A stretch of 64,000 bases of DNA from an uncultured archaeon (GTDB lineage Archaea; Thermoplasmatota; Penumbrarchaeia; JASLWR01). The translations under genes were made by a program, and so were the position numbers. Location of the stretch: the NCBI GenBank assembly GCA_964342815.1, contig CAYFHS010000015.1, positions 23,797-87,796 of the forward strand, read 5' to 3'. This document shows, in pieces, positions 13,288-31,378 of this stretch. Positions within the stretch are counted from its first letter, which is position 1; every line of letters starts with the position of its first letter. The notes under the pieces are model-generated. The model was not told the origin of the DNA, ran no database searches, and saw only the letters and a program-made list of their open reading frames with translations.

Positions 13288-13310
13288 GGTGATTACCTAC
13301 CAAGATGATT

Positions 13311-13979: not shown

Positions 13980-14004
13980 CCTCTTCGTGAATCACTTTCC
14001 GCCC

Positions 14005-15081: not shown

Positions 15082-15085
15082 GTTT

Positions 15086-16174
15086 TCACCCGTAGCGACC
15101 GTATTTCAACATGATGTTGCACGACCCTTCGGAGGTAACCATGCATGGACCAACAGGATTCTGCGGTGTACACACCTTTCCGAAAAGCGGGCATTCGTGG
15201 GAATGGATCAATCCTCTCAACACCTCCCCGCATCTGCAACCCTTGGGCTCTGTGAATTCCCTCCCCCTGAGTTCGAGTAGATCATCCTCAAACCTGACCC
15301 TTGCATCGTGCATTTCGTATTTCTTTCTGATACGCGAACCGCTAGCAGGTATTACTCCGAAACCTCGCCAACTAACATCGCAGACCTCAAAAACCGTTTC
15401 CATTAGTTTGATGGCTTTAAGATTCCCATGAGACCTGACAGCTCTTCCATAACCGTTTATCAATTTTCCCTCGCCCCTATTCACCTGAAGCGCCAGCTGG
15501 TATACTGCCATCATCAGGTCTAGGGGTTCGAAGCCGGTGATGACCTGGGGAACTCCGTATTCCGTTGAAAGGAACTCATATGGTGTTGAGCCGATAATGG
15601 TGGAAACATGTCCTGGTTCGATCAATCCGTCAAGTTTCAACTCACCCATCTCAACGATACCCTTCAGGGCAGGGGGGACCAATCGATGTGTGCACAATAT
15701 CGAGAAATTCGAAGGTAAACCCTCTTTTCCGGATAGCACTGCAGCGGTGGATGGTGCTGTGGTCTCGAATCCAATGGCCATGAAAACGACCTCGTGTCCG
15801 GGATTATCCCGTGCGATCACCACTGCATCGTCGATACTGTAGACCATTCTTACGTCCGCACCCCGGGATTGCATGTCAAAGAGTGTGAACTTTTCCCCGG
15901 GCACCCTCATCATATCGCCGAAGACAGTTATGGTCTTGCCCTTCTGGGCCAGGAGCATAACCTCCTCGATCTCTTCCGGAGGTGTAACGCAGACGGGACA
16001 ACCGGGACCCTGACGGATATCCACACCAAGATCCAGGATCAATGAATCGATTCCGTACCTGATGAAGGTATCCTGGTGCCCTCCACAAACATGCATAAGA
16101 GTTATATCGAGGTCCATTTCCTTCAATTTTGTTACGATCCGGTCGGCAATTTCCTTGTCACGATACTTGAACAT
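15086..16174 (-). CDS. hypD: Hydrogenase maturation protein HypD
   Basis: MHVCGGH, GPGCPVC, GFETT, PGHVS and the CRCG...C...C...PCMV cluster motif. Start moved to the ATG at 16174, which has GGAGG upstream. Confidence 0.96.
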   Translation of the reverse strand: MFKYRDKEIADRIVTKLKEMDLDITLMHVCGGHQDTFIRYGIDSLILDLGVDIRQGPGCPVCVTPPEEIEEVMLLAQKGKTITVFGDMMRVPGEKFTLFDMQSRGADVRMVYSIDDAVVIARDNPGHEVVFMAIGFETTAPSTAAVLSGKEGLPSNFSILCTHRLVPPALKGIVEMGELKLDGLIEPGHVSTIIGSTPYEFLSTEYGVPQVITGFEPLDLMMAVYQLALQVNRGEGKLINGYGRAVRSHGNLKAIKLMETVFEVCDVSWRGFGVIPASGSRIRKKYEMHDARVRFEDDLLELRGREFTEPKGCRCGEVLRGLIHSHECPLFGKVCTPQNPVGPCMVTSEGSCNIMLKYGRYG

Positions 16175-16607
16175 CGGGTACCTCCATTGTAATATTACGA
16201 ATAATACATTCCTTGCCGGTGGTGATATTGGGTACGGCATTGCATACCGGACATGAAATTAAGGGAAATATCTGATGAAAATCAGGTGTTTCCGAGTATT
16301 TTAGATCACCCTCATACCCGCAAACACATTGGATTGCGGCTTTTTTTTTCTTGACAATCAATTCTGCATTTTTCAGTATAGAAGAGCTTGCTGACGAGCC
16401 ACAATTTCGATTAGGGTTCATAAGACTCGGATTTTCAAGCAAGACACCATTTTTCAACACGTCAAAGGCGAATCCTAATTGTTCCTCTCCCAAAAATGTT
16501 AGTTCGCCTATTTCAAGAAATATTTTTGTTACCTCAGTCGCCCCATTCTTCTCTGCTTCAGCGATAACTGACCCCAGAATCTGGTTCATAACTGAGAGTT
16601 CATGCAC
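16158..16607 (-). CDS. hypA: Hydrogenase nickel chaperone HypA (with a 21-aa internal insertion)
   Basis: MHELS start (Ni site), IGELTF, Zn ligands CVCG and CPVC, GKECII. Confidence 0.93.
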   Translation of the reverse strand: MHELSVMNQILGSVIAEAEKNGATEVTKIFLEIGELTFLGEEQLGFAFDVLKNGVLLENPSLMNPNRNCGSSASSSILKNAELIVKKKKAAIQCVCGYEGDLKYSETPDFHQIFPLISCPVCNAVPNITTGKECIIRNITMEVPDVQVS

Positions 16608-16630
16608 CTTTGATCCCTACCTCGCTTCTT

Positions 16631-16876
16631 TCATTCAATTTCACCGTGCTTTGATGCATCATCTTCCACAGAAAGAAGTTCGTCCCACAGTCGAAGCGTC
16701 ACTTCTGCTTCTTTCCTGTCCATAACCTGGATCGCATAACCAGCATGAACCAGAACGTATTGACCTACATCAACTTCGACCAAAGTAATGTTCACTGCCT
16801 TGATCAACCCACCGTAATCCACCTCTGCCCTATTTCCTGTTTTCTCCAATACTTTACCGGGGATCGCTAAACACAT
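16631..16876 (-). CDS. hypC: Hydrogenase chaperone HypC
   Basis: MCLAIPG start (conserved Cys2) and VLVHAGYAI. Confidence 0.96.
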   Translation of the reverse strand: MCLAIPGKVLEKTGNRAEVDYGGLIKAVNITLVEVDVGQYVLVHAGYAIQVMDRKEAEVTLRLWDELLSVEDDASKHGEIE

Positions 16877-17236
16877 GACCACTCTTAAAACTCTCTACCT
16901 ATTTTAAGGTTATAACGAAATTGCCGACTATTGAAATCCTTCCAAGTAAAAAATAAGTTCGAATATTCCATTAATTCAGTTTTGCACAATCGATTGTTAT
17001 TTTTCGGTATAAAGTCTGAATCCATACTGTCCGAAAATACACAATCGTTAAAACTAACCTCATTTCATCCAACAAATTATTTAAATTACGACATAAATGT
17101 TCAGCTTGTATATTGTTAAAGTAATCCAGGTTTATAATTGAATTTCCACTGCGTTGCTTACGGAGTACCGGTCACTTGAAATAAGCCGTGTGTTTGGTAA
17201 GTATATCAAAAAAATCCGTCGTAATGGAGGGGTAGA

Positions 17237-19264
17237 ATGTCAATTGATGAGAATTCCGAAAGCGAAGAGCCGAAAGTGGGTGTTTACGTTTGTGAGTGCG
17301 GCATCAATATCAGTGCCGTTGTAGACGTTCAGGATGTATCGAAATACAACGAAACTCTTCAAAATGTCGTTACGAGCAAAGTTTACAAATACATGTGTTC
17401 CGACCCAGGACAGAACATGATCAAAAAGGATATCGAGGAATTGGGGCTTAACAGGGTAGTGGTGGCATCTTGTTCACCCCGTATGCATGAACCGACTTTC
17501 AGGAACGCAGTGGCTGACGGCGGATTGAATCCATATCTCTTTGAAATGACAAACATTCGCGAACATTGCTCCTGGGTACATAAAGATTCCCCGGAGGAAG
17601 CCACTGAAAAGGCAAAAGATCTCATCAGAATGGCAGTGGCAAAAGCAAGATTGCTCGAGCCTTTGGAGAAATCCGAAGTACCGGTGGAACCAACAGCTGT
17701 TGTGATAGGTGCGGGTATAGCTGGGATACAGGCCGCCTTGAGCATAGCCGATAACGGCTTCAAGGTATATCTCGTTGAAAGAACGCCCTCGGTGGGTGGA
17801 CGGATGTCTCAACTGGATAAAACCTTCCCCACTCTGGATTGCTCAGCATGTATACTAACACCGCGCATGGTGGACGTGGCAAGACACCCGAACATTGAGT
17901 TGCTTACCTATTCCGAAGTCACGGAGGTAAGTGGTTACATAGGAAATTTTTCCGTGAAGATCACCAAAAAACCAAGGTATATCGATATTGAAAAATGTGT
18001 AGGCTGCGGACTATGTGCATCCGCCTGTCGTCTTACCGGAAGAATTCCGAATGAATTCAACCTTGGGATGGATAAACGAGCCGTTCCATATATTCCTTTC
18101 CCTCAGGCCGTACCTTTGAAGTTCACCATTGATGGATCCCGTTGTCTCATGGTTACCCGTGGAAAATGTGGAGATCATCCATTGTGTGCTGAAGCATGTG
18201 ATGCCGATGCCATCGATTTCGAGCAAAAACCGGAAGAAATCGAACTCAAGGTAGGTACTATAGTAATCGCCTCGGGATTCGATATGTACGATCCCTCCCA
18301 TAAGCCGGAGTACGGGTACGGAAAGTACAAAAACGTCATTACGGGTTTGGAGTTCGAAAGGCTGGTATCCTCCTCCGGACCAACCGGAGGTCACATTGAG
18401 ATCGAGGGGGTCGAACCAAAAAACGTCGTCCTCATCCAGTGTGTCGGTTCCCGGGAAAGGGAAGAAGGCGGTAATTCTTATTGCTCGAGAGTTTGCTGCA
18501 TGTATACCGCAAAACACGGACACCTTATCCACGAGAAAATACCTGATGCCAATATTACAATCTTATATACTGACGTTAGAGCTTTCGGAAAGGGATTCGA
18601 AGAATTCTACAACCGTGTGAAAGGCGAAGGAGTGAATTATGTAAAGAGAGAACTTGAGGAGCCCATCGAAGTAGTTGCCAAAAATCCCGAGGGGGATGAT
18701 AATCTCCTGATGATAAAAAGTGGTGATGCACCCCCTCTGGAGGCTGACATGGTGGTTCTTGCAACCGCCATCGTCCCAAGGGAGGATGCGAAGAAGAAGA
18801 TCGGCCAGGTATTGAAGATATCTACCGGGGCAGACGGGTTCTTTCTGGAGGCCCATCCCAAATTACGCCCCATCGATACGATCACCAGCGGTATATTTTT
18901 AGCCGGATGCGGTCAAGGTCCGAAAGATATTCCCGATACTGTCGCCCAGGCCTCTGGCGCGGCTAAACGAGCGGCAATACCTCTTGCCCAGGGACGAGTC
19001 GAACTCGAACCTTTGAAATCGTTTCTGGTGGATAAAAACTGCGACGGATGCGCATACTGTATCGATCCCTGTCCGTACAATGCGCTCACGCTCATCGAAT
19101 ACATGAAAAAGGGAGATATGAAAAAAACCGTACAGGTGACCGAAGCTCTATGCCAGGGTTGCGGGGTATGCCAGGCCACCTGTCCCAAGCAGGGTATAGT
19201 TGTTAAGGGCTTCAAATTGGCCCAGTTGAATGCCATGGTCGATGCGGCTCTGGAGGTGGCATAA
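17237..19264 (+). CDS. hdrA: Heterodisulfide reductase subunit A (intact, full length)
   Basis: GVYVCECG, CSPRMHE, NIREHCSWVH, GAGIAG, LDKTFPTLDCSACI, inserted ferredoxin, CSRVCCMY, EAHPKLRP and C-terminal 2[4Fe-4S]. Confidence 0.96.
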   Translation: MSIDENSESEEPKVGVYVCECGINISAVVDVQDVSKYNETLQNVVTSKVYKYMCSDPGQNMIKKDIEELGLNRVVVASCSPRMHEPTFRNAVADGGLNPYLFEMTNIREHCSWVHKDSPEEATEKAKDLIRMAVAKARLLEPLEKSEVPVEPTAVVIGAGIAGIQAALSIADNGFKVYLVERTPSVGGRMSQLDKTFPTLDCSACILTPRMVDVARHPNIELLTYSEVTEVSGYIGNFSVKITKKPRYIDIEKCVGCGLCASACRLTGRIPNEFNLGMDKRAVPYIPFPQAVPLKFTIDGSRCLMVTRGKCGDHPLCAEACDADAIDFEQKPEEIELKVGTIVIASGFDMYDPSHKPEYGYGKYKNVITGLEFERLVSSSGPTGGHIEIEGVEPKNVVLIQCVGSREREEGGNSYCSRVCCMYTAKHGHLIHEKIPDANITILYTDVRAFGKGFEEFYNRVKGEGVNYVKRELEEPIEVVAKNPEGDDNLLMIKSGDAPPLEADMVVLATAIVPREDAKKKIGQVLKISTGADGFFLEAHPKLRPIDTITSGIFLAGCGQGPKDIPDTVAQASGAAKRAAIPLAQGRVELEPLKSFLVDKNCDGCAYCIDPCPYNALTLIEYMKKGDMKKTVQVTEALCQGCGVCQATCPKQGIVVKGFKLAQLNAMVDAALEVA

Positions 19265-20521
19265 ATGAAGATAGGCGTTTATGTCTGTGAATGCGGCATC
19301 AATATTGCTGCAACCGTTGACGTGGAAAAGGTTGTCGAATACGTCAAAGATATACCAAAAGTCGCAGTTACAAGATATTACAAATATATGTGCTCGGACC
19401 CCGGCCAGACCCTTATAAAGAAAGATATTGAGGAGCTTGGCCTTGACCGTGTTGTTGTTGCATCTTGCTCTCCAAGGATGCATGAGCTCACCTTCAGGAC
19501 CGTTTGCAAGGAAGCGGGTCTGAATCCATTCTGTTTCGAGATGGCAAATATACGTGAGCAGTGTTCCTGGGTTCACAAGGACAAAGAGAGAGGTACTGAA
19601 AAGGCGATTTCACTGGTAATGTCTGCAGTGGCACGGGCCGCCCTACTGGAGCCTTTGCAGATGAAAAAAGTTGGAGTAGTACCGAATGCAATGGTCATTG
19701 GCGCAGGTATCGCAGGAATACAGGCGGCATTGGACATAGCTGATACCGGATACAAGACCTACCTCGTGGAGCGGACCGCAAGCGTTGGCGGCAGGATGTC
19801 TCAACTGGATAAAACATTCCCCACGCTGGACTGTTCAGCATGTATATTGACCCCGAAGATGGTGGATGTTGCGAGGCACCCGAATATAGAGTTGTTAACT
19901 TATTCCGAAGTGGAGAACATTGACGGTTACGTGGGTAATTTCAAGGTCCGGGTGAGAAAGAGAGCCCGCTCAGTAGACGAGTCTAAATGTACCGGTTGCG
20001 GAGTTTGTACGGAGAACTGCCCCATATCGCTCCAAATCCAATTACAGGATAAACCCGATGAAGCTCCAGTTGTGAGAGATCGGGAATATATTGAGGAACT
20101 GATTGAGAAGAACTCCTATCACGAGGGACCACTTGTACAGATCATGTTGGAAGTAAACGATAAATACCGATATCTACCTAGAGATGTTCTTGAATATCTA
20201 TCGTATAAACTTGAGATACCCATGACCACGATTTATCGTGTGGCAACTTTCTACAAGTCCTTCAGTCTGGAAAAAAGAGGGAAATTTCACATAAAGATAT
20301 GTCTGGGTACTGCGTGTCATGTAAGAGGGGCGAGGAACATACTCGATAGGGTAAAGAGTTCCATATCCGGTGCTGAGGAAGGTTTGTTTTCCATCGAGAC
20401 AGTCAACTGTCTTGGTGCTTGTGCTCTGGGTCCAATTATGGTGATAAATGATGAGGTTCACGGTAACGTGACAGTAGATAATGTAGATAAAATAATTTCT
20501 AACCTGGGGGTGAATGAATGA
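19265..20521 (+). CDS. Fusion of the HdrA N-terminal half (to CTGCGVCTENCP) with a NuoE/HydC-like [2Fe-2S] subunit
   Basis: Residues ~1-255 are colinear with the upstream HdrA. The C-terminal ~150 aa carry RVATFY..F, ICLGTACHVRG and VNCLGACALGP (NuoE signature). Confidence 0.92.
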   Translation: MKIGVYVCECGINIAATVDVEKVVEYVKDIPKVAVTRYYKYMCSDPGQTLIKKDIEELGLDRVVVASCSPRMHELTFRTVCKEAGLNPFCFEMANIREQCSWVHKDKERGTEKAISLVMSAVARAALLEPLQMKKVGVVPNAMVIGAGIAGIQAALDIADTGYKTYLVERTASVGGRMSQLDKTFPTLDCSACILTPKMVDVARHPNIELLTYSEVENIDGYVGNFKVRVRKRARSVDESKCTGCGVCTENCPISLQIQLQDKPDEAPVVRDREYIEELIEKNSYHEGPLVQIMLEVNDKYRYLPRDVLEYLSYKLEIPMTTIYRVATFYKSFSLEKRGKFHIKICLGTACHVRGARNILDRVKSSISGAEEGLFSIETVNCLGACALGPIMVINDEVHGNVTVDNVDKIISNLGVNE

Positions 20522-22383
20522 ATAAGTTGCAAAACCCCGGAGAATTGGAAAAGCTGAAAAGGACCATCCAAGATGGTAGAGACCCCAAAAAACCTATAAT
20601 AACAATATGTGGCGGGACCGGATGCAAAGCCTCCGGATGCGATGATATAATTGGCATCTTTAAAAATGAGATCGAGAAACAAAACCTGGGAAATAAGGTG
20701 GACATTCGAATTACCGGATGCCATGGATTTTGCGAAAAAGGCCCTCTCGTTGTCATTCATCCCAAAAAGATATGCTATCCCAGGGTAAAAGGAGAGGATG
20801 TTTCGAGAATTATTTCAGAGACGGTAATGAACGATACGGTGATTGATGAACTGCTCTATGTCGATCCAATCTCAGGTGAAAAAATAACCTATGAATATGA
20901 CATACCATTCTACAAAAAGCAGACGAGGACAATTTTCGGAAGTAATGGCCATATCGACCCCACCAGTATTGAAGATTATATTGCCATCGGTGGATATTCC
21001 GCCCTTTCGAAGACGCTAAGCAATATGACCCCAGGTAGCGTTATCGAGGAAATAAAGAGTTCAGGGTTGAGAGGAAGGGGAGGTGGAGGATTTTCTACAG
21101 GTAGAAAATGGGCGACCGCAGCCAAATTCGATACGGAGAAGAAATACATATTATGCAATGCGGACGAGGGAGATCCCGGGGCATACATGGATCGTAGCGT
21201 TCTCGAAGGAAACCCCCACAGCGTGATCGAAGGTATGATCATCGGCGCATTCGCAGTTGGGTCCAATGACGGTTATATCTATGTCAGAGCCGAATACCCG
21301 CTGGCCGTCTCTCATTTCATAAAAGCCCTGGAAACTGCAAGAGAATATGGGCTCCTGGGCACGAACATATTGGGAAGCGGATTTGATTTTGACATAAGGG
21401 TCTATCAGGGTGGTGGCGCCTTCGTTTGCGGAGAATCGTCAGCTCTCATTCAATCCATCGAAGGAAAGGTGGGCGAACCCAGAGCAAAGCACATCCACGC
21501 TACGGAAAAAGGCCTATGGGGATACCCAACCGTATTGAACAACGTCGAAACCTGGGCCAACGTTCCACTGATAATCAACAAGGGTGCCGATTGGTATGCT
21601 GGTATAGGTACCGATGGGAGTAAAGGAACGAAAATATTTTCTCTCGTCGGGAAGATAAACAATACCGGTCTGGTGGAAGTCCCCATGGGTATTACCATAA
21701 GGGAAATAGTATATGATATCGGCGGGGGAATACCCGAAGGAAAAAAATTCAAAGCAATTCAAACCGGCGGCCCCTCCGGTGGATGCATTCCCGAATCACT
21801 GATCGACATGGCAATCGATTTCGACGAATTAACAAAAGCCGGCTCCATGATGGGATCCGGGGGAATGATCGTGATGGATGAAGGGACCTGTATGGTTGAT
21901 GTCGCCAAATATTTTATCGAATTCAACCTCGATGAGTCCTGCGGCAAATGCGTGTCTTGCAGGGAAGGCAATGCACGGATATTGGAAATACTTGAAGACA
22001 TCTGTCAAGGCAATGGCAATGAAAATTCGATACCCATGCTGGAGGAATTTGCAGATCATGTGAAGGACCTCTCGCTGTGTGGGCTTGGAAAGACTGCTCC
22101 AAATCCGGTTCTTACGACACTGCGGTATTTCAAAGACGAATATCTTGCCCATATCGAGAAAAAAGAGTGCCCCGCGAAGACCTGCAAGCCACTGATACGC
22201 TATGTCATAGACCCGGATGCATGCAAAGGCTGCAGAGCCTGTGCGCGAAAATGTCCGGTTGAGGCGATTACCGGTGAAAAGAAAGAACCACATGTTATCG
22301 ATGGAAATATTTGTACAAAATGCGGCACGTGTATCGAGACATGTAAATTCAATTCTATAATAATTGAAACGGGGGGGGTATAA
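20518..22383 (+). CDS. nuoF: NuoF/HydB-like FMN/NADH-binding subunit with N-terminal thioredoxin-like [2Fe-2S] and C-terminal 2[4Fe-4S] domains
   Basis: CGGTGC...GCHGFCEKGP, GLRGRGGGGF, CNADEGDPGAYMDR, GGGAFVCGE, GGPSGG, ESCGKCVSCREG, LCGLG, and two CxxCxxCxxxC motifs. Confidence 0.93.
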   Translation: MNKLQNPGELEKLKRTIQDGRDPKKPIITICGGTGCKASGCDDIIGIFKNEIEKQNLGNKVDIRITGCHGFCEKGPLVVIHPKKICYPRVKGEDVSRIISETVMNDTVIDELLYVDPISGEKITYEYDIPFYKKQTRTIFGSNGHIDPTSIEDYIAIGGYSALSKTLSNMTPGSVIEEIKSSGLRGRGGGGFSTGRKWATAAKFDTEKKYILCNADEGDPGAYMDRSVLEGNPHSVIEGMIIGAFAVGSNDGYIYVRAEYPLAVSHFIKALETAREYGLLGTNILGSGFDFDIRVYQGGGAFVCGESSALIQSIEGKVGEPRAKHIHATEKGLWGYPTVLNNVETWANVPLIINKGADWYAGIGTDGSKGTKIFSLVGKINNTGLVEVPMGITIREIVYDIGGGIPEGKKFKAIQTGGPSGGCIPESLIDMAIDFDELTKAGSMMGSGGMIVMDEGTCMVDVAKYFIEFNLDESCGKCVSCREGNARILEILEDICQGNGNENSIPMLEEFADHVKDLSLCGLGKTAPNPVLTTLRYFKDEYLAHIEKKECPAKTCKPLIRYVIDPDACKGCRACARKCPVEAITGEKKEPHVIDGNICTKCGTCIETCKFNSIIIETGGV

Positions 22384-22384
22384 A

Positions 22385-24157
22385 ATGGTCATGATCGAGA
22401 TCAACGGGACGAAGTTCGACGCCCCGAAAGGCAAAATGGTTCTCGAAGTTGCGAAGGAAAATAAAATCGACATTCCAACGCTTTGTTATCATAAAGCTCT
22501 TCCACCCTACGGGGCCTGTCAGCTCTGCGTTGTGGAGATTCTGAAGAACGGATGGTCCAAACTTGCAACATCCTGTACCCTACCGGTGATGGAGGGTTTG
22601 AAGGTTGAGACCGATTCCGAGCGTGTTATAAAAAGAAGAAAAATGAATATAGAACTTATGCTGGGTCGCTGCCCGGAAGAAGAAGTTCTCCTGAAACTGG
22701 CCCAGGAGTATAATGTTGGAAAACCAAGATTCAAGGAAATGGATGACGATTGCATCCTATGCGGATTGTGTGTCAGAATGTGCGAGCGGATGGGTATGGA
22801 GGCAATTAGCTTTACCGGTCGTGGCAAGGACCGTGATCTGGGAACGCCTTTCAAGGAAAAATCAGACGTCTGCATGACCTGCGGTGCCTGTTTATACGTC
22901 TGCCCCACATCGAGATTTTCAAGTGAGGAAGTCGAAAGTATTAGTGGAAACAAACCACTGCCGATTCCTGCGGAATTCAACGCAGGAATGGAACCCCGCC
23001 CAGTAATAAGTATTCCTTTTCCCCAGGCGGTACCAAAAATACCTGTTATAGACAGGGAACGGTGTGTCCATTTTCAGACGGGTAATTGTAAGACATGCGA
23101 AACTTTTTGCGAACCGGGAGCCATCGATTACGAGCAGGAAGATGAGATATTGGATCTTGATATAGGTTCTATTATCGTCGCTACGGGTTTCGATCTCTTC
23201 GATCCATCGATAAAACCTCAGTATGGCTATGGGAAATTCTCGAATGTGCTCACCGGCCTGGAATTCGAGCGGCTGGTTTCGGCGTCCGGTCCGACTGAAG
23301 GCCACGTTGAACTCAATGGTAAAGAACCCAAAAGGGTGGTGTTCATACAGTGCGTAGGTTCGAGAGACAAGGAGGGCCATGAATACTGTTCACGTGTTTG
23401 TTGCATGTACACTGCTAAACACGCTCATCTCGTGGGAGACAAGGTACCCGGTGCGGAGATAACAATTTTTTATACCGATGTAAGGGCTTTTGGGAAGGGA
23501 TTCGAAGAGTTCTATGTCAGGGTACAGGAGGAAGGCGTGGATTACAGGAGAAGAGAATTGGACGATTTTATCGAGGTTGTCCAGAAGGATGATAGTGATA
23601 GTTTAGTTGTTAGGGCGGAGGGTCATCCGGATATCGAAGCTGATCTGGTTGTGTTGGCCACGGCCATCGAGCCGAGAAAGGATGCCGGCAAGATGATGAA
23701 TATTCTGAACATCACCCAGAGCGGCGACGGTTTCATGCTGGAGGCTCACCCGAAACTACGACCTGTGGATACCTTCACAGACGGTGTTTTCCTGGCAGGA
23801 TGCTGCCAGGCACCGCGGGATATACCGGATACGGTGGCACAGGCGAGTGGGGCCGCCGCAATGGCATGCAGTATTCTTTCGAAGGATAATCTCGAGATCG
23901 ATCCTCTGACGTCTTATGTGGACGAGGCATTATGTCGGGGCTGCGGTTTCTGTGTCGAGGTCTGCCCGTACGATGCCCTTTCGCTGGAAGAAGTGAACCG
24001 GTTCGGACATCTGGTTGATGTGGCAAAGGTCAACGAGGCGCTTTGCAAGGGTTGCGGTTCATGTGTAGGCACCTGCTTGTCGGGTGCGATACAGGTTAGA
24101 GGATATAATGATAAACAGATACATGCCGCCATCAGCGCACTGGGGGTGACCAAATGA
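22385..24157 (+). CDS. Fusion of a NuoG/HydA N-terminal Fe-S module with the HdrA C-terminal half
   Basis: N-terminus has IPTLCYH...GACQLCVVE...SC ([2Fe-2S]), CILCGLCVRMC and CMTCGACLYVCP. From PIPAEFNAGM onward it is colinear with the upstream HdrA: IPFPQAVP, IVATG, CSRVCCMY, EAHPKLRP, C-terminal ferredoxin. Confidence 0.92.
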   Translation: MVMIEINGTKFDAPKGKMVLEVAKENKIDIPTLCYHKALPPYGACQLCVVEILKNGWSKLATSCTLPVMEGLKVETDSERVIKRRKMNIELMLGRCPEEEVLLKLAQEYNVGKPRFKEMDDDCILCGLCVRMCERMGMEAISFTGRGKDRDLGTPFKEKSDVCMTCGACLYVCPTSRFSSEEVESISGNKPLPIPAEFNAGMEPRPVISIPFPQAVPKIPVIDRERCVHFQTGNCKTCETFCEPGAIDYEQEDEILDLDIGSIIVATGFDLFDPSIKPQYGYGKFSNVLTGLEFERLVSASGPTEGHVELNGKEPKRVVFIQCVGSRDKEGHEYCSRVCCMYTAKHAHLVGDKVPGAEITIFYTDVRAFGKGFEEFYVRVQEEGVDYRRRELDDFIEVVQKDDSDSLVVRAEGHPDIEADLVVLATAIEPRKDAGKMMNILNITQSGDGFMLEAHPKLRPVDTFTDGVFLAGCCQAPRDIPDTVAQASGAAAMACSILSKDNLEIDPLTSYVDEALCRGCGFCVEVCPYDALSLEEVNRFGHLVDVAKVNEALCKGCGSCVGTCLSGAIQVRGYNDKQIHAAISALGVTK

Positions 24158-24348
24158 GCGAGGAAGTACAAGCTGAGTTCGAACCAGACATCGTTGCCTT
24201 TCTATGTAATTGGTGGAGTTTTTTTCTTTGTGCAATTTTCTGTGCTGGCTCCCCCTCGCAAAGAAAAAAATTCGGAAATGAAGAAACTCGAGGGAGCCTG
24301 CTCGAAAATTGTTACTCACTTCGTTCGCAGAAGGAGGTGGTTATTTGA
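24154..24348 (+). pseudogene. MvhD-like N-terminal stub (EFEPDIVAFLCNW) continuing into unrelated structured sequence; 64-aa ORF
   Basis: 24175-24215 matches the 5' part of the next gene (24351-24391) at 37/41 nt, then diverges. The ORF overlaps the upstream stop (ATGA) and the downstream start (TTGA). Confidence 0.55.
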
Positions 24349-24770
24349 GTGAGTTCGAACCAAATATCGTAGCCTTTCTATGTAACTGGTGCTCGTATGC
24401 AGGAGCCGATCTTGCAGGTACATCGAGAGCCCAATACCCACCGAACGTTAAGGTCATACGTGTGATGTGTTCGAGCCGCATCAATCCGTTATTCCTGATA
24501 AACACACTTCAGCAAGGGGCTGACGGTGTACTGATCGGCGGCTGCCACCCTGGTGATTGTCATTATGTCCAGGGCAATTACTTCGCCAGGAGGAAGTTCG
24601 GCCTCATAAAGAGTCTTATGGAGCAAGTCGGCGTCGATCCGGCAAGAGTGAAAATGGCCTGGGTATCCGCCTCGGAGGGATCAAAGTTTGCTGAATTGAT
24701 CCAGGAGCTTTCGGACGAATTGCGGGAGATTGGTCCCATGGAACAGTTCAAAAGGAGGGATGAGCTGTGA
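24345..24770 (+). CDS. flxD: MvhD/FlxD [2Fe-2S] subunit
   Basis: FEPNIVAFLCNWCSYAGADLAG, RVMCS, GCHPGDCHY, WVSASEG. TTG start at 24345 preceded by GGAGGTG. Confidence 0.93.
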   Translation: MSEFEPNIVAFLCNWCSYAGADLAGTSRAQYPPNVKVIRVMCSSRINPLFLINTLQQGADGVLIGGCHPGDCHYVQGNYFARRKFGLIKSLMEQVGVDPARVKMAWVSASEGSKFAELIQELSDELREIGPMEQFKRRDEL

Positions 24771-25735
24771 TTACGGAAATTCGAGAGGCGGTGAAGGAAT
24801 ATCTGGCCCGTGATGATGTAAAATATGCCATTGGCTACGAAAAGGGAACCTACGGCTCAAAGGTCGCTCCGTCATTTGCATTTTCTCCGAAGGACGTTGA
24901 TAAATTCATCTTTTCACCATTGTGCATCAATAACCTGGCCGTCTATCCGCTCCTAGAAGAAAAATTACCTTTACCAAGGGGACAGACAGCCGAGAAATCA
25001 AAGATTGTTGTTGTCCTGAAAGGATGTGACTCAAAGGCCATGCTCCAAATAATCAACGAAAAGGGATTGTCCCGTGATGATATCATTATTATCGGAGTGT
25101 CCTGCTCCGGAGTCATAGACCCGAAAAAGCTTCAGGCAAAGTTCCCAAATTCTCCAATCGACGCTGCCTATAAAGACGGTAAGTTCCTGCTGCTGGTCAA
25201 TGGGGAAGAACAGCATATTTCAAAAGATGAACTCATCTTTGAGAAGTGCAAGGTATGTGAAAATCCCAATCCGGTTATCTACGATCTGCTTGTGGGAGAA
25301 AAGGTTGAACCAAAGGTCGACGATTTTACCGACGTTACAGCGAGGAAGGACGATAAACCGGAGGAAAGATGGAACCACTGGGGACAGGAGTTCGACCGTT
25401 GTATCCGATGTTACGCCTGCAGAGGTGTTTGCCCCATGTGCTACTGCAAGAAGTGTATTGCAGAAGAGTTGAGACCGGCATGGATCGGACGTTCGGTAAA
25501 TTTGTCAGAAAATACCGCTTGGAACCTGATCAGGGCCTACCACCTTGCAGGAAGATGCATCGATTGCGGTGAATGCGAGAGGGTTTGTCCCATGGACCTC
25601 CCATTACGGGAACTGAACCGAAAGATGGCAAAAGATGTTTTTGAGTTATTCGATTACAAGGCCGGAATCAACCTGGACGGGAAACCGGTTTTAGCTGTCT
25701 ACAAACCCGATGACCCGGAGGATTTTATATTGTAG
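24767..25735 (+). CDS. flxC: FlxC-like Fe-S protein (FdhB/FrhB-related, C-terminal 2[4Fe-4S])
   Basis: CIRCYACRGVCPMCYC and RCIDCGECERVCP motifs; position between mvhD/flxD and an AsrA-like gene matches the flxDCBA order. Confidence 0.82.
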   Translation: MITEIREAVKEYLARDDVKYAIGYEKGTYGSKVAPSFAFSPKDVDKFIFSPLCINNLAVYPLLEEKLPLPRGQTAEKSKIVVVLKGCDSKAMLQIINEKGLSRDDIIIIGVSCSGVIDPKKLQAKFPNSPIDAAYKDGKFLLLVNGEEQHISKDELIFEKCKVCENPNPVIYDLLVGEKVEPKVDDFTDVTARKDDKPEERWNHWGQEFDRCIRCYACRGVCPMCYCKKCIAEELRPAWIGRSVNLSENTAWNLIRAYHLAGRCIDCGECERVCPMDLPLRELNRKMAKDVFELFDYKAGINLDGKPVLAVYKPDDPEDFIL

Positions 25736-25743
25736 GTGATAGC

Positions 25744-26754
25744 ATGATATTGCCAAAGAACAAACTGAACCATTGGCTGGCCGCCCTGAAGAAACATGAT
25801 CTGTTCACCCCTACCCGGAACGGTGACGTTGTTCTTTTCAGTCCCTTTTCCGGAGAAAAAGATGTCATTCTGGAGGGGAGGCCAACCTTGGGCCCCAAGG
25901 GTATATTGTTTCCCCAGACCGAAACCCTTTTTACATATCGTATCGGAAAAAATGCAGAAATTGTGGATGCTGCAGACAAGCGAACGAAGAGGATCATATT
26001 CGGCATCCGTCCCTGTGATGCCAGGGCGTTCTCGGTTCTGGATAATCTGTTCAAGGATGAATACCAGGACACTTATTACCTAAATGCGAGAGAAGCCACG
26101 ACCCTGGTTGGTCTGACCTGTTCCCAGCCGAATACAAACTGTTTCTGTACCTCCCTGTCCGGCAGCCCAGGTGAAAGAGACGACGTAGACATTCTGCTCA
26201 CCGACCTCGGTGACGGATATTACGTTGATATCGTAACCGAAAAGGGACAAATTTTGGTGGACGAGAACTATCAGCTCTTCTCGGAGGTCTCCGACAGTGA
26301 CGAAAGCAGGAAAGAGGCAATAATAGCGGATGCGGAAAAAAGCATTTCAAGAATGATCGATTCCACCGACCTGCCCAACAAATTAGGGAAGATTTTCGAG
26401 AGTGACTATTGGAATAAGACCGCTATGAAATGTATCGGCTGCGGGACCTGCACATACCTCTGCCCAACCTGCTATTGTTTCGATATACAGGATGAGATTC
26501 AGGGTATAAAGGGTAAGAGAGCGCGAATGTGGGATTCATGCATGTACCCCGAATATACCATACACACGTCCGGCCACAATCCCAGGCCTGCCAGGATGAA
26601 TAGAATTCGGAACAGGGTATATCACAAGTTCAAGTACTACCATGATAATTTTGACGTCCATCTCTGCATAGGATGCGGCAGATGCGTGGACAAATGTCCC
26701 GTGAACATAGATATAATCGACATAATAACCCATGTGAAGGAGGGAGCACAATGA
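25744..26754 (+). CDS. flxB: FlxB-like Fe-S protein (AsrA / sulfhydrogenase beta family)
   Basis: FGIRPCD, C...CFCTS, CIGCGTCTYLCPTCYCF, WDSC, RNRVYHKF, CIGCGRCVDKCP. Confidence 0.88.
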   Translation: MILPKNKLNHWLAALKKHDLFTPTRNGDVVLFSPFSGEKDVILEGRPTLGPKGILFPQTETLFTYRIGKNAEIVDAADKRTKRIIFGIRPCDARAFSVLDNLFKDEYQDTYYLNAREATTLVGLTCSQPNTNCFCTSLSGSPGERDDVDILLTDLGDGYYVDIVTEKGQILVDENYQLFSEVSDSDESRKEAIIADAEKSISRMIDSTDLPNKLGKIFESDYWNKTAMKCIGCGTCTYLCPTCYCFDIQDEIQGIKGKRARMWDSCMYPEYTIHTSGHNPRPARMNRIRNRVYHKFKYYHDNFDVHLCIGCGRCVDKCPVNIDIIDIITHVKEGAQ

Positions 26755-27677
26755 GCAATCCCTATGTACCCCGTCTTGCCAAAGTTGTTGAGATACGCAA
26801 GGAAGTGGGGGGTCCAAGGCCGATTAAGACCTTCAAGATGGAATTCAATGACCCGAATATAAGAAATTCTTTCGAGTTCAAACAGGGTCAGACCGCCATG
26901 CTGAGCGTTCTCGGTGTCGGGGAGAGTATGTTTGCCATATCGTCTCCCTCTACTCGAAAAGGATACATCGAGTGCAGCGTGATGAACGCAGGGGGGAAAA
27001 ACACAACAGCCCTTCACCAACTGGAAGTGGGTGATACGGTTGCTATCCGCGGCCCTTACGGCAATCATTTTCCATTGGATGATTGGAAGGGAAAGAACCT
27101 GATATTCATCGGAGGAGGGATTGGGCAGGCGCCTTTGAGATCAGTCTATATGACTGCTTTGGATCGAAGGGATGAGTTTGGGGATATCCTCATCATTTAC
27201 GGGGCGCGGACCTCCGACGACCTGGCTTTCAAATACGAACTTGATGAACTGGAGAAACGGGAGGATGTTGACCTCAGATTATGTCTCGACTGGAAATTCG
27301 GCCCGGGGGGAAAGATACAGGAAGAGGCGGAAGCAGGATGGAAGGTTATCAACACCGAGGAACCTGCTTGTACACTGGATGAGGATTCATTATGTTCAAA
27401 GTTCACCTGTTTCGTGCCAGAATTGGTGCTGGTGATGGCCCCCCGTTCAGAAAACACCATTGCCTTGACCTGCGGGCCGCCCATAATGATCAAGTTCGTG
27501 GTTCAGAATTTATCGAAACTGGGATTCCACCCGCAGCAGATATATACCACAATGGAGATGAGAATGAAATGCGGGATTGGTAAATGTGGTCGATGTAATA
27601 TCGGAAATCTTTATGTATGCAAGGACGGCCCCGTTTTCACCAATGAAGAATTGAAAAATGTACAAGGGGAGAGGTGA
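26751..27677 (+). CDS. flxA: FlxA-like FAD/NAD(H)-binding oxidoreductase (AsrB / sulfhydrogenase gamma family)
   Basis: RGPYGN, GGGIGQAPLRS, CGPPIM and MKCGIGKCGRC...C ([2Fe-2S]). ATG at 26751 overlaps the flxB stop. Confidence 0.9.
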   Translation: MSNPYVPRLAKVVEIRKEVGGPRPIKTFKMEFNDPNIRNSFEFKQGQTAMLSVLGVGESMFAISSPSTRKGYIECSVMNAGGKNTTALHQLEVGDTVAIRGPYGNHFPLDDWKGKNLIFIGGGIGQAPLRSVYMTALDRRDEFGDILIIYGARTSDDLAFKYELDELEKREDVDLRLCLDWKFGPGGKIQEEAEAGWKVINTEEPACTLDEDSLCSKFTCFVPELVLVMAPRSENTIALTCGPPIMIKFVVQNLSKLGFHPQQIYTTMEMRMKCGIGKCGRCNIGNLYVCKDGPVFTNEELKNVQGER

Positions 27678-27682
27678 TATAG

Positions 27683-28096
27683 ATGGATGAATACGAGCCA
27701 AAGATCATAGCTTTCTGCTGTAACTGGTGCAGTTATGCCGGAGCGGACCTCGCCGGAACGTCGAGAACGCAATATCCGCCAAATGTCAGGATCATACGGG
27801 TAATGTGCTCGGGTATGGTACACCCTAATCTCGTTATTGAAGCCCTAACAAAGGGAGCGGATGGTGTGCTCATATGCGGATGTCATATTGGGGACTGCCA
27901 CTATATCGAAGGGAACCACAGAACCGAGAAAAGGGCGGAGGCTATTGAGCTGATGCTGGAGGATTTTGGTCTTGAATACGAGAGATTCAGGCTGGAATGG
28001 GTATCGGCCAGCGAGGGAGCAAAATTTGCCCGAGTCGTAGGTGAAATGGTGGAGGATCTGAAAATGGTCGGACCCAGTCCTTACGCACCGATGTAA
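27683..28096 (+). CDS. mvhD: Second MvhD [2Fe-2S] subunit
   Basis: YEPKIIAFCCNWCSYAGADLAG, RVMCSG, GCHIGDCHY, WVSASEG. Confidence 0.93.
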   Translation: MDEYEPKIIAFCCNWCSYAGADLAGTSRTQYPPNVRIIRVMCSGMVHPNLVIEALTKGADGVLICGCHIGDCHYIEGNHRTEKRAEAIELMLEDFGLEYERFRLEWVSASEGAKFARVVGEMVEDLKMVGPSPYAPM

Positions 28097-31373: not shown

Positions 31374-31378
31374 ATCAT

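What the first reader, a model, noticed from the sequence alone, without database searches (positions are those of the whole stretch)
19265..24157. HdrA split inside its inserted ferredoxin domain, with a whole NuoE-NuoF-NuoG (HydCBA-like) NADH module spliced into the gap
Seen in sequence: ORF 19265 follows the intact HdrA (17237) residue for residue up to the first ferredoxin motif (CTGCGVCTENCP, ending ~20023), then switches to NuoE. ORF 22385 begins as the NuoG/HydA Fe-S module and resumes HdrA at the next segment (PIPAEFNAGM...IPFPQAVP, ~22961; intact copy IPNEFNLGM...IPFPQAVP). A free-standing NuoF/HydB lies between them, and the two halves add up to one complete HdrA with nothing obviously lost. 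Established knowledge: in 2[4Fe-4S] ferredoxin folds each cluster takes three Cys from one motif and one from the other; HdrA binds FAD through an N-terminal GxGxxG plus C-terminal ATG/G-C segments; HdrL is a precedent for an NAD(P)H-binding insertion in HdrA. Inference: both clusters of the inserted ferredoxin, and the FAD site, would be ligated across two different polypeptides, clamping a NuoEFG loop onto HdrA. That would wire an HdrA-type flavin to an FMN/NADH centre of the HydABC type, putting two different electron-bifurcation chemistries in one covalently pre-organised complex. I do not recognise this split-fusion architecture as a characterised system.
Basis: partly seen in the sequence, partly recalled or inferred. 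Interest (0 to 1): 0.92.

Follow-up and report, generated by a model that had tools for sequence, protein, structure and literature searches.

The report
Split HdrA enclosing a Bfu module
An electron-splitting flavoprotein (HdrA) is encoded here in two pieces, fused to the first and last subunits of a second, different electron-splitting NADH/ferredoxin module; the layout is real, is conserved in many uncultured archaea and bacteria, and I found no paper that describes it.

Summary
ORF 19265-20521 is the N-terminal half of HdrA, up to the first Cys motif of the inserted ferredoxin domain, fused to NuoE/BfuC. ORF 20518-22383 is a full HydB/BfuB-type NuoF. ORF 22385-24157 is a small NuoG/BfuA-type Fe-S module fused to the rest of HdrA.

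It is not a misassembly or a pseudogene:
- Contigs from other samples and studies bridge both junctions.
- Both fusion proteins have more than 100 full-length homologues (50-89% identity) in many archaeal and bacterial lineages.
- All eight Cys of the split ferredoxin domain are invariant.
- A complex model joins the two halves (ipSAE 0.85; best control 0.00).

The core operon recurs with MvhD, a FlxABC-like NAD(P)H module, an Mvh-type [NiFe] hydrogenase, and in some lineages HdrBC or MetF.

The closest characterised system is class II benzoyl-CoA reductase (BamE + BamGHI). There the Bfu module feeds the input side of HdrA. Here it sits inside the low-potential output arm.

Ten literature searches found no description of this architecture. 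This scan has already noted it in at least 25 other genomes, with the same conclusion.

Verdict: a real, widespread, uncharacterised variant of coupled HdrA-Bfu electron bifurcation. The reaction it catalyses is only inferred.

The parts
17237..19264 (+). Intact hdrA (675 aa). Probable partner protomer of the split HdrA'.
   Evidence: NCBIfam HdrA2 model, 832 bits over residues 13-673. An intact or HdrL-type hdrA lies directly upstream of the split unit in L004 and L005, upstream of an uncalled stretch that tblastn reads as HdrA'N::NuoE in L002, and one mvhD gene further upstream in L001.
19265..20521 (+). hdrA'N::bfuC fusion (418 aa). HdrA N-terminal domain, first half of the FAD domain and the first Cys motif of the inserted ferredoxin (nt 19265-20023); a linker of about 20 residues; then a NuoE/HydC-type [2Fe-2S] domain (about nt 20090-20506).
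   Evidence: More than 100 full-length homologues. C242/245/248/252 and the NuoE Cys C346/351/382/386 are invariant.
20518..22383 (+). bfuB (621 aa): HydB/BfuB-type NuoF with FMN/NADH site, N-terminal [2Fe-2S], N3-type [4Fe-4S], C-terminal 2x[4Fe-4S] and the 4Cys+His B2 site.
   Evidence: PDB 7t2r_B 792 bits, 9mqx_B 783 bits, 8a6t_B 768 bits, each full length. C458, C496, H545, C551 and C556 lie at the positions of A. mobile C438/C476/H525/C531/C536 (PMC8880783).
22385..24157 (+). bfuA::hdrA'C fusion (590 aa). [quoted passage not shown]
   Evidence: 9mqx_A E 4e-39 for residues 11-184; 8rvv_A and 5odc_A for 198-592. More than 100 full-length homologues. Invariant Cys and K345.
24345..24770 (+). 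mvhD/flxD copy 1. The listed ORF starts at 24309; TTG 24345 behind GGAGGTGG is the likely start.
   Evidence: PF02662, E 1e-53; sequence. An mvhD follows the split unit in L002, L004, L005, L032 and L057, but not in L001, where a Prismane gene follows.
24767..25735 (+). flxC-like Fe-S protein (FrhB-C-like domain + 2x[4Fe-4S]).
25744..26754 (+). flxB-like (AsrA / sulfhydrogenase-beta type, Fer4_22).
26673..27677 (+). flxA-like FAD/NAD(P)H-binding protein with a [2Fe-2S] domain (AsrB/PyrK type). The ORF is given as listed; the true start is probably further downstream.
   Evidence: PF00175, PF10418, PF00970.
27683..28096 (+). mvhD/flxD copy 2.
   Evidence: PF02662, E 6e-54.
28121..28630 (+). HycI-type [NiFe]-hydrogenase maturation protease.
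   Evidence: PF01750.
29928..32332 (-). mvhA-like [NiFe] large subunit (ORF 29928-31580) and mvhG-like small subunit (ORF 31379-32332), convergent with the operon.
   Evidence: PF00374 and PF01058.
11044..16882 (-). hypF, hypB, hypE, hypD, hypA and hypC maturation genes, divergent from hdrA.

Best explanation
The four genes at 17237-24157 encode the core of one soluble redox complex.

Assembly. The two HdrA' halves assemble in trans into a complete HdrA-type flavoprotein. Its FAD site and the two [4Fe-4S] clusters of its inserted ferredoxin domain are each built from both polypeptides. The loop between the two Cys motifs of that ferredoxin is replaced by a complete three-subunit HydABC/Bfu-type module: BfuC fused to the N-half, BfuB free, BfuA fused to the C-half.

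Wiring. The three BfuA clusters therefore continue directly into the arm of HdrA that in Mvh-Hdr and BCRII carries the low-potential electron away from the bifurcating FAD. The Bfu FMN/Fe-S site, which reacts with NAD(H) and ferredoxin, takes the place of free ferredoxin as the redox partner of that arm.

Partners. In this lineage HdrA' probably pairs with the intact HdrA encoded just upstream, forming a heterodimer. The two MvhD adaptors would connect the C-terminal ferredoxin domains to the Mvh-type [NiFe] hydrogenase and to the FlxABC-like NAD(P)H module.

Proposed function. This operon has no hdrBC. I therefore propose a reversible hydrogenase-linked (and NAD(P)H-linked) NAD+/ferredoxin oxidoreductase, an archaeal NiFe/HdrA-based counterpart of HydABC. 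Where HdrBC or MetF are attached in other loci, it would act as a two-stage bifurcating enzyme.

Shown: the gene structure, its conservation, cofactor ligand conservation, and the modelled reassembly. Inferred: electron path, direction, substrates and heterodimer.
For: (1) Domain boundaries: the halves cover HdrA2 model positions 1-258 and 249-640.

(2) Conservation. The best 120 hits of each fusion are nearly all full length at 50-89% identity. They come from Thermoplasmatota, Theionarchaea, Methanofastidiosia, Syntropharchaeia, Prometheo- and Heimdallarchaeia, Spirochaetota, Chloroflexota, Gemmatimonadota and Planctomycetota, plus Zixibacteria and Myxococcota.

(3) Ligands. Invariant across 25+25 sequences: C242/245/248/252 of P0002 and C227/235/238/242 of P0124 (the split ferredoxin); the GxGxxG motif; the TrxR-cluster Cys; K345 (the HdrA Lys409 equivalent); and all BfuA and BfuC Cys.

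(4) Complex model of P0124 residues 100-590 with P0002 residues 1-275. ipSAE 0.85 in 3 of 3 runs; best of 3 controls 0.00. That mark was reached by 58 of 80 solved complexes and 2 of 110 mismatched pairs. The runs share at least 94% of contacts and partner pLDDT is at least 88. Contacts include Rossmann-sheet pairing and P0002 residues 241-261 against P0124 residues 161-172 and 204-249. HdrA structures are solved, so the pass may come from memory.

(5) The Bfu-type definition is met: the BfuB domain set, BfuC, a minimal BfuA (definition in PMC9304861) and the five B2 ligands.

(6) Synteny. The split unit recurs with mvhD, flxCBA-like genes and [NiFe] hydrogenase genes. In Zixibacteria (L032) the order is hdrC-hdrB-split unit-mvhD, with an mvhA-like large-subunit gene about 0.8 kb further on. 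In L003 and L057 MTHFR genes are adjacent.

(7) Variants keep the same break point. Free HdrA'N ORFs of 276-289 aa occur in L042, L045, L048, L056 and L057. L048 has the split with BfuA only and no NuoE/NuoF. A second paralogous locus in this same genome (L006) follows hdrC-hdrB.

(8) Contigs from other samples and studies bridge nt 20030 (X7 19514-20068; X3 19880-20369) and nt 22950 (X4 22769-23000) with no differences.

(9) The BCRII cryo-EM work shows that HydBC-type and HdrA-type modules can work in series, and that the inserted ferredoxin domain is the low-potential arm.
Against: - There is no biochemical, expression or structural datum for any member.
- The complex model covers only two truncated chains and has no cofactors.
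- In BCRII, the only characterised HdrA+Bfu enzyme, Bfu feeds HdrA's input side (C-terminal ferredoxin domain/BamF), not the inserted ferredoxin domain. The wiring proposed here has no experimental precedent.
- The thermodynamic logic of placing a Bfu site on the low-potential arm is not obvious.
- No hdrBC lies in this operon, so the high-potential acceptor of the HdrA flavins is unknown. CCG-domain genes exist elsewhere in the genome.
- No second HdrA-like match above 150 bits lies beside the split unit in L010, L032, L040 or L065, and only a divergent HdrA-like::MvhD protein in L057. The heterodimer is therefore not universal.
- The two NAD(P)H-linked modules (Flx-like and Bfu) in one operon make the net reaction ambiguous.
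Confidence: 0.6

Rival explanations
1. The wiring is the same, but the NuoEFG-like module is a plain, non-bifurcating NADH diaphorase of the HoxEFU type. NAD+ simply replaces ferredoxin as acceptor or donor on the HdrA' arm. This would be a three-subunit analogue of the NfnB/GltD-like NAD(P)H insert of HdrL.
For: HdrL-type HdrAs with an NfnB-like insert in the same ferredoxin domain are the partner genes in Asgard and Theionarchaea loci. Chadwick et al. describe such inserts in ANME-1 (PMC9012536). This shows that the arm is repeatedly wired to pyridine-nucleotide modules.
Against: P0003 has the complete HydB/BfuB architecture: N-terminal 2Fe-2S, C-terminal 2x[4Fe-4S] and the 4Cys+His B2 site. 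The cited papers report this set for bifurcating enzymes but not for NuoF, HoxF or FdsB. It scores 770-790 bits against bifurcating HydB/BfuB chains and 340-370 bits against Nqo1/NuoF.
Confidence: 0.17
2. Series arrangement as in BCRII, but entering through the inserted ferredoxin domain. Bfu confurcates NADH + reduced ferredoxin and delivers mid-potential electrons to the HdrA' flavin. That flavin then bifurcates toward HdrBC or MetF (high potential) and toward H2 or a very low-potential acceptor via MvhD.
For: Schut et al. proposed this logic for Bam-Bfu and the BCRII preprint demonstrated it. hdrCB or MTHFR genes flank the split unit in L003, L032, L057 and the C4 paralogue.
Against: In solved Hdr and Bam complexes the mid-potential entry is the C-terminal ferredoxin domain with MvhD/BamF, not the inserted ferredoxin domain. 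MvhD genes are retained here, which suggests that the normal entry is still in use.
Confidence: 0.15
3. The halves do not reassemble. P0002 and P0004 would be independent Fe-S/flavin subunits, or remnants of an hdrA disrupted by insertion of a nuoEFG cassette.
For: None beyond the fact that the gene is split.
Against: Neither half holds a complete FAD-binding fold. All cofactor ligands are invariant over sequences as little as about 50% identical, there are no internal stops, and the genes are translationally coupled. The model joins the halves.
Confidence: 0.04
4. Assembly chimera at about nt 20030 or nt 22950.
For: The genome is a 116-contig metagenome-type assembly.
Against: Contigs from other samples and studies bridge both junctions without differences. 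The same junctions occur in more than 100 independent assemblies.
Confidence: 0.01

Closest known systems
Class II benzoyl-CoA reductase Bam[(BC)2DEFGHI]2 of Geobacter metallireducens ('Bam-Bfu'; PMC9304861; cryo-EM preprint bioRxiv 10.64898/2026.04.10.717634)
   Same: One complex contains an HdrA-type flavoprotein (BamE), an MvhD-like adaptor (BamF) and a HydBC/Bfu-type NADH/ferredoxin module with a small three-cluster BfuA (BamGHI). The two energy-coupling modules work in series. BamE is a fused HdrA dimer, like the 1076-aa protein of this genome's second locus.
   Different: In Bam the subunits are separate, unsplit genes. BamI passes electrons to the C-terminal ferredoxin domain of BamE (the input side), and the inserted ferredoxin domain is the low-potential output to BamBC. 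Here the Bfu module is covalently inserted into the inserted ferredoxin domain itself. There is no AOR-type BamB/BamC and no HdrD-like BamD. The partner modules are Mvh hydrogenase and FlxABC-like proteins.
MvhAGD-HdrABC of methanogens (PDB 5ODC, 8RVU/8RVV, 7BKB)
   Same: The two halves together have every HdrA domain and ligand set. MvhD, MvhA and MvhG homologues are encoded alongside. HdrA dimerisation is expected.
   Different: HdrA' is split after the first Cys motif of the inserted ferredoxin and encloses a Bfu module. There is no hdrBC in this operon. The genome has no McrA (89% complete), so CoM-S-S-CoB is unlikely to be the substrate.
HdrL, and HdrA with an NfnB/GltD-like insert (Desulfobacterium; ANME-1; PMC9012536)
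   Same: An NAD(P)H-binding module interrupts the inserted ferredoxin domain of HdrA. Such proteins are the upstream partners of the split unit in Asgard and Theionarchaea loci.
   Different: HdrL is a single polypeptide with a one-domain NfnB-like insert. The insertion point lies about 35 residues further on, after the IPFPQAVP segment. The module is not of the Bfu type.
Bfu family: NiFe-HydABCSL (7T2R), FeFe-HydABC (8A6T, 7Q4V, 7P5H), Wor-Bfu (9MQX), Nfn-Bfu/Stn
   Same: The BfuB and BfuC parts are full-length homologues (about 790 bits to 7t2r_B). The BfuA part resembles the small type-2 BfuA of 9MQX chain A.
   Different: The 'third substrate' port of BfuA leads into an HdrA flavoprotein whose halves are fused to BfuC and BfuA. 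No clade with this architecture is named in the Bfu classification. That survey excluded metagenomic sequences and left 17-18 clades unassigned.
FlxABCD-HdrABC of Desulfovibrio vulgaris
   Same: The downstream genes reproduce the Flx composition: MvhD-like, two Fe-S proteins, and an AsrB-like FAD/NAD(P)H protein.
   Different: A second HdrA (split), a Bfu module and a second MvhD are present. hdrBC is absent from the operon.

Membership tests
Bfu (HydABC-type) family as defined by Schut et al. 2022 | BfuB with Nuo51 FMN domain, SLBB domain, NuoF 4Fe-4S domain and a 4Fe-4S ferredoxin-type domain | tested here: met
   P0003: PF01512 (residues 179-350), PF10531 (374-422), PF10589 (461-545) and Fer4 x2 (562-612), plus an N-terminal 2Fe-2S domain (24-101). 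Definition.
Bfu (HydABC-type) family as defined by Schut et al. 2022 | BfuC with a NuoE-like thioredoxin-type [2Fe-2S] domain; BfuA with at least a 2Fe-2S ferredoxin-type and a 4Fe-4S ferredoxin-type domain | tested here: met
   P0002 residues 276-414: PF01257, E 1e-39. P0004 residues 7-85: Fer2_4; residues 127-182: 2x[4Fe-4S]. All ligands are invariant. Both are fused to HdrA halves, which the definition does not foresee.
Bfu (HydABC-type) family as defined by Schut et al. 2022 | B2 site with 4Cys+His ligands in BfuB (A. mobile C438, C476, H525, C531, C536) | tested here: met
   C458, C496, H545, C551 and C556 of P0003 lie at the +20 offset of the full-length match to 7t2r_B.
Bfu (HydABC-type) family as defined by Schut et al. 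2022 | Ferredoxin- and NAD(H)-dependent electron bifurcation or confurcation | not testable with these tools
   Needs enzyme assays.
HdrA (bifurcating heterodisulfide-reductase flavoprotein) | N-terminal cluster domain; TrxR-like FAD domain with GxGxxG, its own [4Fe-4S] and the Lys near FAD N5; inserted 2x[4Fe-4S] ferredoxin; C-terminal 2x[4Fe-4S] ferredoxin | tested here: met
   All are present, distributed over P0002 and P0124. HdrA2 model positions 1-258 and 249-640 are covered. Invariant Cys and K345. PDB 5odc_A and 8rvv_A are the best hits for both halves.
HdrA (bifurcating heterodisulfide-reductase flavoprotein) | One continuous polypeptide | tested here: not met
   It is split after the first Cys motif of the inserted ferredoxin domain, with 2.9 kb of Bfu coding sequence between the halves.
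MvhAGD-HdrABC complex | HdrB/HdrC (CCG-domain) subunits encoded with HdrA | tested here: not met
   No CCG domain lies in the operon. The twelve CCG matches in the genome all lie on other contigs, one set beside the paralogous split unit on C4.
Class II benzoyl-CoA reductase (Bam) | AOR-type tungsten subunit BamB with BamC, and an HdrD-like BamD | tested here: not met
   None of the operon's genes between 17237 and 28630 has an AOR or CCG domain.
FlxABCD module | FlxA (FAD/NAD(P)H + 2Fe-2S), FlxB and FlxC Fe-S proteins, and FlxD (MvhD-like) | tested here: met
   By domain composition only. Orthology to the D. vulgaris proteins was not tested.

The most novel reading that the evidence does not exclude
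A widespread, so far undescribed class of two-stage electron-bifurcating complex. The low-potential arm of an HdrA-type flavin is hard-wired, through a trans-assembled ferredoxin domain, into the Bfu FMN/Fe-S bifurcation site. H2 (Mvh) or NAD(P)H (Flx) oxidation would then be coupled to NAD+ and ferredoxin reduction, with HdrBC or MetF as optional high-potential sinks. This would be the missing NADH/ferredoxin-coupled hydrogenase system of Asgard archaea, Thermoplasmatota and many uncultured anaerobic bacteria that lack [FeFe] HydABC.
Probability: 0.4. Interest if true: 0.85.

Novelty: new variant of a known kind. Interest (0 to 1): 0.75.

Why it matters
Flavin-based electron bifurcation sets the energy budget of strict anaerobes. 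Until the 2026 BCRII structure, no enzyme was known to combine two different bifurcating modules. That example is confined to aromatic-degrading bacteria.

The architecture here combines the same two module types in a different and more intimate way: one flavoprotein fold and one ferredoxin domain are shared between two fusion proteins. It occurs across many phyla, including Asgard archaea, marine Thermoplasmatota, Chloroflexota and Zixibacteria. In those genomes the genes carry only generic automatic annotations: 'NAD(P)H-dependent oxidoreductase subunit E' or 'NADH:ubiquinone oxidoreductase subunit E' for the N-half fusion, and '(2Fe-2S)-binding protein', '4Fe-4S binding protein' or 'heterodisulfide reductase subunit A' for the C-half fusion.

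Knowing what the complex does would change metabolic reconstructions of H2, NADH and ferredoxin balance in these uncultured groups. It would also give a natural test case for how bifurcating modules can be chained.

Tried and rejected
- **Literature.** Ten full-text searches and 15 papers read. Terms included 'split HdrA', 'HdrA-Nuo', 'Hdr-Bfu', HdrA+NuoEFG, HdrA+NuoE-like, HdrA+HydBC and HdrA+HoxF. None describes the split-fusion. The Appel et al. 2021 BBA review is not held, so I cannot exclude a mention there or in other subscription journals.
- **Expression.** No RNA holder was listed for the stretch. This says nothing either way.
- **Misassembly.** Rejected (and the homologue searches).
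- **Recent duplication or gene conversion between hdrA and the split copy in this window.** Rejected. Third-position identity is 0.40-0.45 and the longest exact run is 22 nt.
- **Single origin of the split.** A quick maximum-likelihood tree of 96 HdrA C-halves does not make the 14 split forms one clade. It needs at least 6 changes across starred branches. The archaeal-type group of 6, including the window, is one clade at 99% support. This could reflect repeated insertion or loss of the cassette, or gene conversion by neighbouring intact hdrA. It was not resolved, and the tree is unrooted and 'quick'.
- **Dehalococcoidia locus L003.** HdrA'N and NuoE are in different frames with a 50-nt overlap. 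I cannot tell a true unfused form from an assembly frameshift. The free HdrA'N ORFs in L042, L045, L048, L056 and L057 argue that unfused forms exist.
- **Census.** The junction-only search found about 20 representatives of 50%-identity clusters that span the junction in one stretch, many of them fragments. These figures give a lower bound, not a count.

Full report
**1. Observation**

The window carries a co-directional run of genes from 17237 to 28630.

- Gene 1 (17237-19264) is an intact 675-aa HdrA, with 832 bits to the NCBIfam HdrA2 model.
- Gene 2 (19265-20521, P0002) starts one base after the hdrA stop.
  - Residues 2-257 match HdrA2 model positions 1-258. That covers the N-terminal cluster domain, the GxGxxG half of the FAD domain and the first CxxCxxCxxxCP motif of the inserted ferredoxin (C242-P253, ending at nt 20023).
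  - After a linker of about 20 residues, residues 276-414 are a NuoE/HydC-type thioredoxin-like [2Fe-2S] domain.
- Gene 3 (20518-22383, P0003) overlaps gene 2 by ATGA. It is a 621-aa NuoF with the long HydB architecture.
- Gene 4 starts at ATG 22385, behind a G-rich ribosome-binding site (the database form is P0124, 590 aa).
  - It opens with a [2Fe-2S] Fer2_4 domain and a complete 2x[4Fe-4S] ferredoxin. The best solved match is 9mqx chain A, a 247-aa small BfuA (E 4e-39).
  - From about nt 22958 it continues as HdrA2 model positions 249-640. [quoted passage not shown]

**2. The arrangement is real and under selection**

- Logan contigs from other samples and studies lie on the stretch without differences and bridge both junctions: X7 19514-20068 and X3 19880-20369 for about nt 20030, and X4 22769-23000 for about nt 22950.
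- The best 120 database relatives of each fusion protein are almost all full length (94-100% coverage) at 50-89% identity and carry the same Pfam combinations.
- Where a source is named, they come from Euryarchaeota/Thermoplasmatota, Theionarchaea, Methanofastidiosia, Syntropharchaeia, Prometheoarchaeota, Heimdallarchaeia, Spirochaetales, Dehalococcoidia and other Chloroflexota, Gemmatimonadota and Planctomycetota. A scan of species-representative genomes adds Zixibacteria, Myxococcales and Anaerolineales. The nearest match there is an uncultured Thermoplasmata archaeon at 75%.
- A search with the 114-residue junction alone finds about 20 representatives of 50%-identity clusters that span it in one stretch.
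- Within the window the intact and split copies are old paralogues: 68% and 57% amino-acid identity, third-codon-position identity only 0.40-0.45, longest exact run 22 nt.

**3. Cofactor sites**

In alignments of 25 diverse members of each fusion family the following are invariant:

- the four Cys of the first inserted-ferredoxin motif (P0002 C242, C245, C248, C252);
- the four Cys of the second motif (P0124 C227, C235, C238, C242);
- the GxGxxG glycines;
- the TrxR-domain cluster Cys (P0124 C323, C335, C339, C340);
- K345, five residues after the CC pair, in the position I recall for the Lys beside FAD N5 in methanogen HdrA (Lys409, from memory);
- the eight Cys of the C-terminal ferredoxin;
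- the twelve Cys of BfuA and the four Cys of the NuoE domain.

It is established knowledge that in 2x[4Fe-4S] ferredoxin folds each cluster takes three Cys from one motif and one from the other. Both clusters, like the FAD site, must therefore be built from both polypeptides.

A two-chain model (P0124 residues 100-590 with P0002 residues 1-275, each with its alignment) gave ipSAE 0.85 in three runs against 0.00 for the best of three controls.

- That mark was reached by 58 of 80 solved complexes and 2 of 110 mismatched pairs.
- The runs agree in at least 94% of contacts. Partner pLDDT is at least 88.
- There are about 460 contacts. They include Rossmann-sheet pairing, and the first Cys motif of P0002 lying against the second motif and the last BfuA motif of P0124.

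HdrA structures are solved, so this pass shows likeness to an HdrA fold and may come from memory.

**4. The enclosed module is of the bifurcating Bfu type**

- P0003 scores 792, 783 and 768 bits, full length, against BfuB of NiFe-HydABCSL (7T2R), Wor-Bfu (9MQX) and HydABC (8A6T). It scores only about 340-370 bits against Nqo1/NuoF.
- It has all four domains that define BfuB, and the partners meet the BfuC and minimal BfuA definitions.
- The five ligands of the unusual B2 site of A. mobile HydB (C438, C476, H525, C531, C536; PMC8880783) are present at the expected offset: C458, C496, H545, C551, C556.
- The BfuA part has three clusters and lacks the His-ligated cluster. This matches the 'type 2' BfuA of Wor-, Por- and Bam-Bfu.

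**5. Context**

In the window:

- Upstream and divergent lie hypF, hypB, hypE, hypD, hypA and hypC.
- Downstream in the same operon lie mvhD, a FrhB-like Fe-S protein, an AsrA-like Fe-S protein, an AsrB-like FAD/NAD(P)H protein (together a FlxDCBA-like set), a second mvhD and a HycI-type protease.
- Convergent lie mvhA- and mvhG-like genes.
- There is no CCG-domain (HdrB/D) gene in the operon. The genome (4.35 Mb, 116 contigs, 89% complete, no McrA) has several on other contigs.

In related loci the core recurs. It consists of an intact or HdrL-type hdrA, HdrA'N::NuoE, NuoF and BfuA::HdrA'C, usually followed by mvhD. It comes with different attachments:

- Flx-like genes and [NiFe] hydrogenase genes in a Prometheoarchaeota locus (L002). 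Flx-like genes in a metagenome locus whose C-half fusion NCBI assigns to Theionarchaea (L005). Two mvhD genes, a FrhB-like gene and a [NiFe] large-subunit gene in a Euryarchaeota locus (L001). mvhD and a FlxC-like gene, up to the contig end, in a Spirochaetales locus (L004).
- hdrC-hdrB in front, mvhD behind and an mvhA-like gene further on in a Zixibacterium (L032).
- hdrC-hdrB in front and MTHFR genes a few kb downstream in a Dehalococcoidia MAG (L003).
- An MTHFR gene, an FAD oxidoreductase and an HdrA-like::MvhD protein in front of the unit in a deltaproteobacterial MAG (L057).

Variants keep the same break point:

- free HdrA'N ORFs of 276-289 aa, with NuoE as a separate gene or several kb away (L042, L045, L057);
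- a form with BfuA::HdrA'C but no NuoE/NuoF (L048).

A second form occurs in this same genome on contig C4, as well as in L075 and L081. In the C4 copy:

- the N-half lacks the N-terminal domain;
- the C-half lacks the C-terminal ferredoxin and is fused to a second HdrA unit;
- that second unit lacks the inserted ferredoxin;
- the locus is preceded by hdrC-hdrB and followed by mvhD and flxCBA.

That fused dimer of complementary HdrA units recalls BamE. It supports the idea that the split HdrA' works with a second HdrA protomer. No second HdrA-like match above 150 bits lies beside the split unit in several bacterial loci, so the heterodimer is not universal.

**6. Mechanism**

[quoted passage not shown] They are bifurcated at the FAD. 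The high-potential electron leaves through the TrxR-domain cluster to HdrBC/BamD. [quoted passage not shown]

Here the Bfu module is spliced into that low-potential arm. The last BfuA cluster motif is only about 50 residues upstream of the second inserted-ferredoxin motif on the same chain. The first inserted-ferredoxin motif is tethered by about 20 residues to the N-terminal helical part of BfuC. In solved complexes that part contacts BfuA.

The inference is that the Bfu site, which reacts with NAD(H) and ferredoxin, replaces free ferredoxin as the partner of this arm.

- For this operon (Mvh, Flx-like, no HdrBC) I commit to a reversible H2- and NAD(P)H-linked NAD+/ferredoxin oxidoreductase. 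That would be a functional counterpart of HydABC/NiFe-HydABCSL built on an HdrA scaffold.
- With HdrBC or MetF attached, as in other loci, it would be a two-stage bifurcating enzyme.

The direction, the substrates and whether the HdrA' flavin bifurcates or only relays electrons are not shown. The rivals are a plain diaphorase reading and a BCRII-like 'confurcate then bifurcate' reading that enters through the inserted domain.

**7. Comparison and novelty**

The closest characterised system is BCRII. The authors of its structure state that coexistence of two distinct bifurcation modules in one complex had not been reported before. There the modules are separate subunits and Bfu feeds HdrA's input side.

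The nearest architectural precedent is the NfnB-like insert in HdrL and in ANME-1 HdrA. I found that insert to lie about 35 residues further along the same domain.

I found no description of the split-fusion in ten searches and fifteen papers. The Bfu family survey excluded metagenomic sequences and left 17-18 clades unassigned. The Appel 2021 review could not be read.

Earlier notes of this scan report the same architecture in at least 25 other genomes, and several follow-ups reach the same conclusion. One of them reports gene conversion between the intact and split copies in another genome. That may explain why split forms are not one clade on my C-half tree. It does not apply to this window.

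**8. Verdict**

The finding is a real, conserved and apparently undescribed variant of coupled HdrA-Bfu electron bifurcation. The structural reading is well supported in silico. The physiological reaction is inferred only.

Noticed in passing
window 24154-24348: A 64-codon ORF starts at the ATGA overlap with the stop of the bfuA::hdrA'C gene. Its first ~20 residues repeat the N-terminus of the following MvhD up to CNW. Then comes about 130 nt of unrelated sequence before the real mvhD start (TTG 24345). Contigs of run X3 show variant letters at 24251, 24252 and 24279 and loose ends at 24199 and 24311, so the insert may be polymorphic.
   Followed up: partly
L006 (own genome, contig C4:97000-115000), minus strand 1067-12161: A second, differently permuted split-HdrA/Bfu locus lies in the same genome. 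Gene order: hdrC, hdrB, [FAD N-half without the N-terminal domain::NuoE, 294 aa], NuoF (621 aa), [BfuA::HdrA'C without C-terminal ferredoxin::second HdrA without inserted ferredoxin, 1076 aa], mvhD, flxC/B/A-like. The same type occurs in L075 (uncultured archaeon) and L081 (Fibrobacterota).
   Followed up: partly
L007 (own genome, contig C13) 3233-8500, minus strand: A third NuoE (231 aa) - NuoF (630 aa) - BfuA-like (893 aa) cluster with no HdrA parts. A fourth, short NuoF (448-aa frame) lies on contig C27. The third substrate of the C13 Bfu-like enzyme was not examined.
   Followed up: no
L048 8001-10623 (uncultured deltaproteobacterium): A split HdrA with a free 276-aa N-half directly followed by BfuA::HdrA'C, with no NuoE or NuoF. 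This could be an intermediate or a reduced form of the architecture.
   Followed up: no
L002 3504-6818 and L005 6681-10004: In a Prometheoarchaeota locus (L002) and a metagenome locus assigned to Theionarchaea (L005), the HdrA encoded just upstream of the split unit is an ~1100-aa HdrL-type protein. Its inserted ferredoxin domain is itself interrupted by an NfnB/GltD-like NAD(P)H module, after the IPFPQAVP segment. Both protomers of the presumed dimer would then carry pyridine-nucleotide modules on their low-potential arms.
   Followed up: partly
tree of 96 HdrA C-halves: Split forms group with intact HdrAs of the same bacterial lineage (for example L003 with Dehalococcoidia, L040 with Thermoflexia/Anaerolineae). 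At least 6 changes of state are forced. This could reflect repeated cassette gain or loss, or gene conversion by the neighbouring hdrA.
   Followed up: partly
window 21572-21715 (inside bfuB): One contig each in runs X5 and X7 skips 142 nt here, with only 23 nt on the shorter side. It most likely comes from related organisms in those metagenomes.
   Followed up: no
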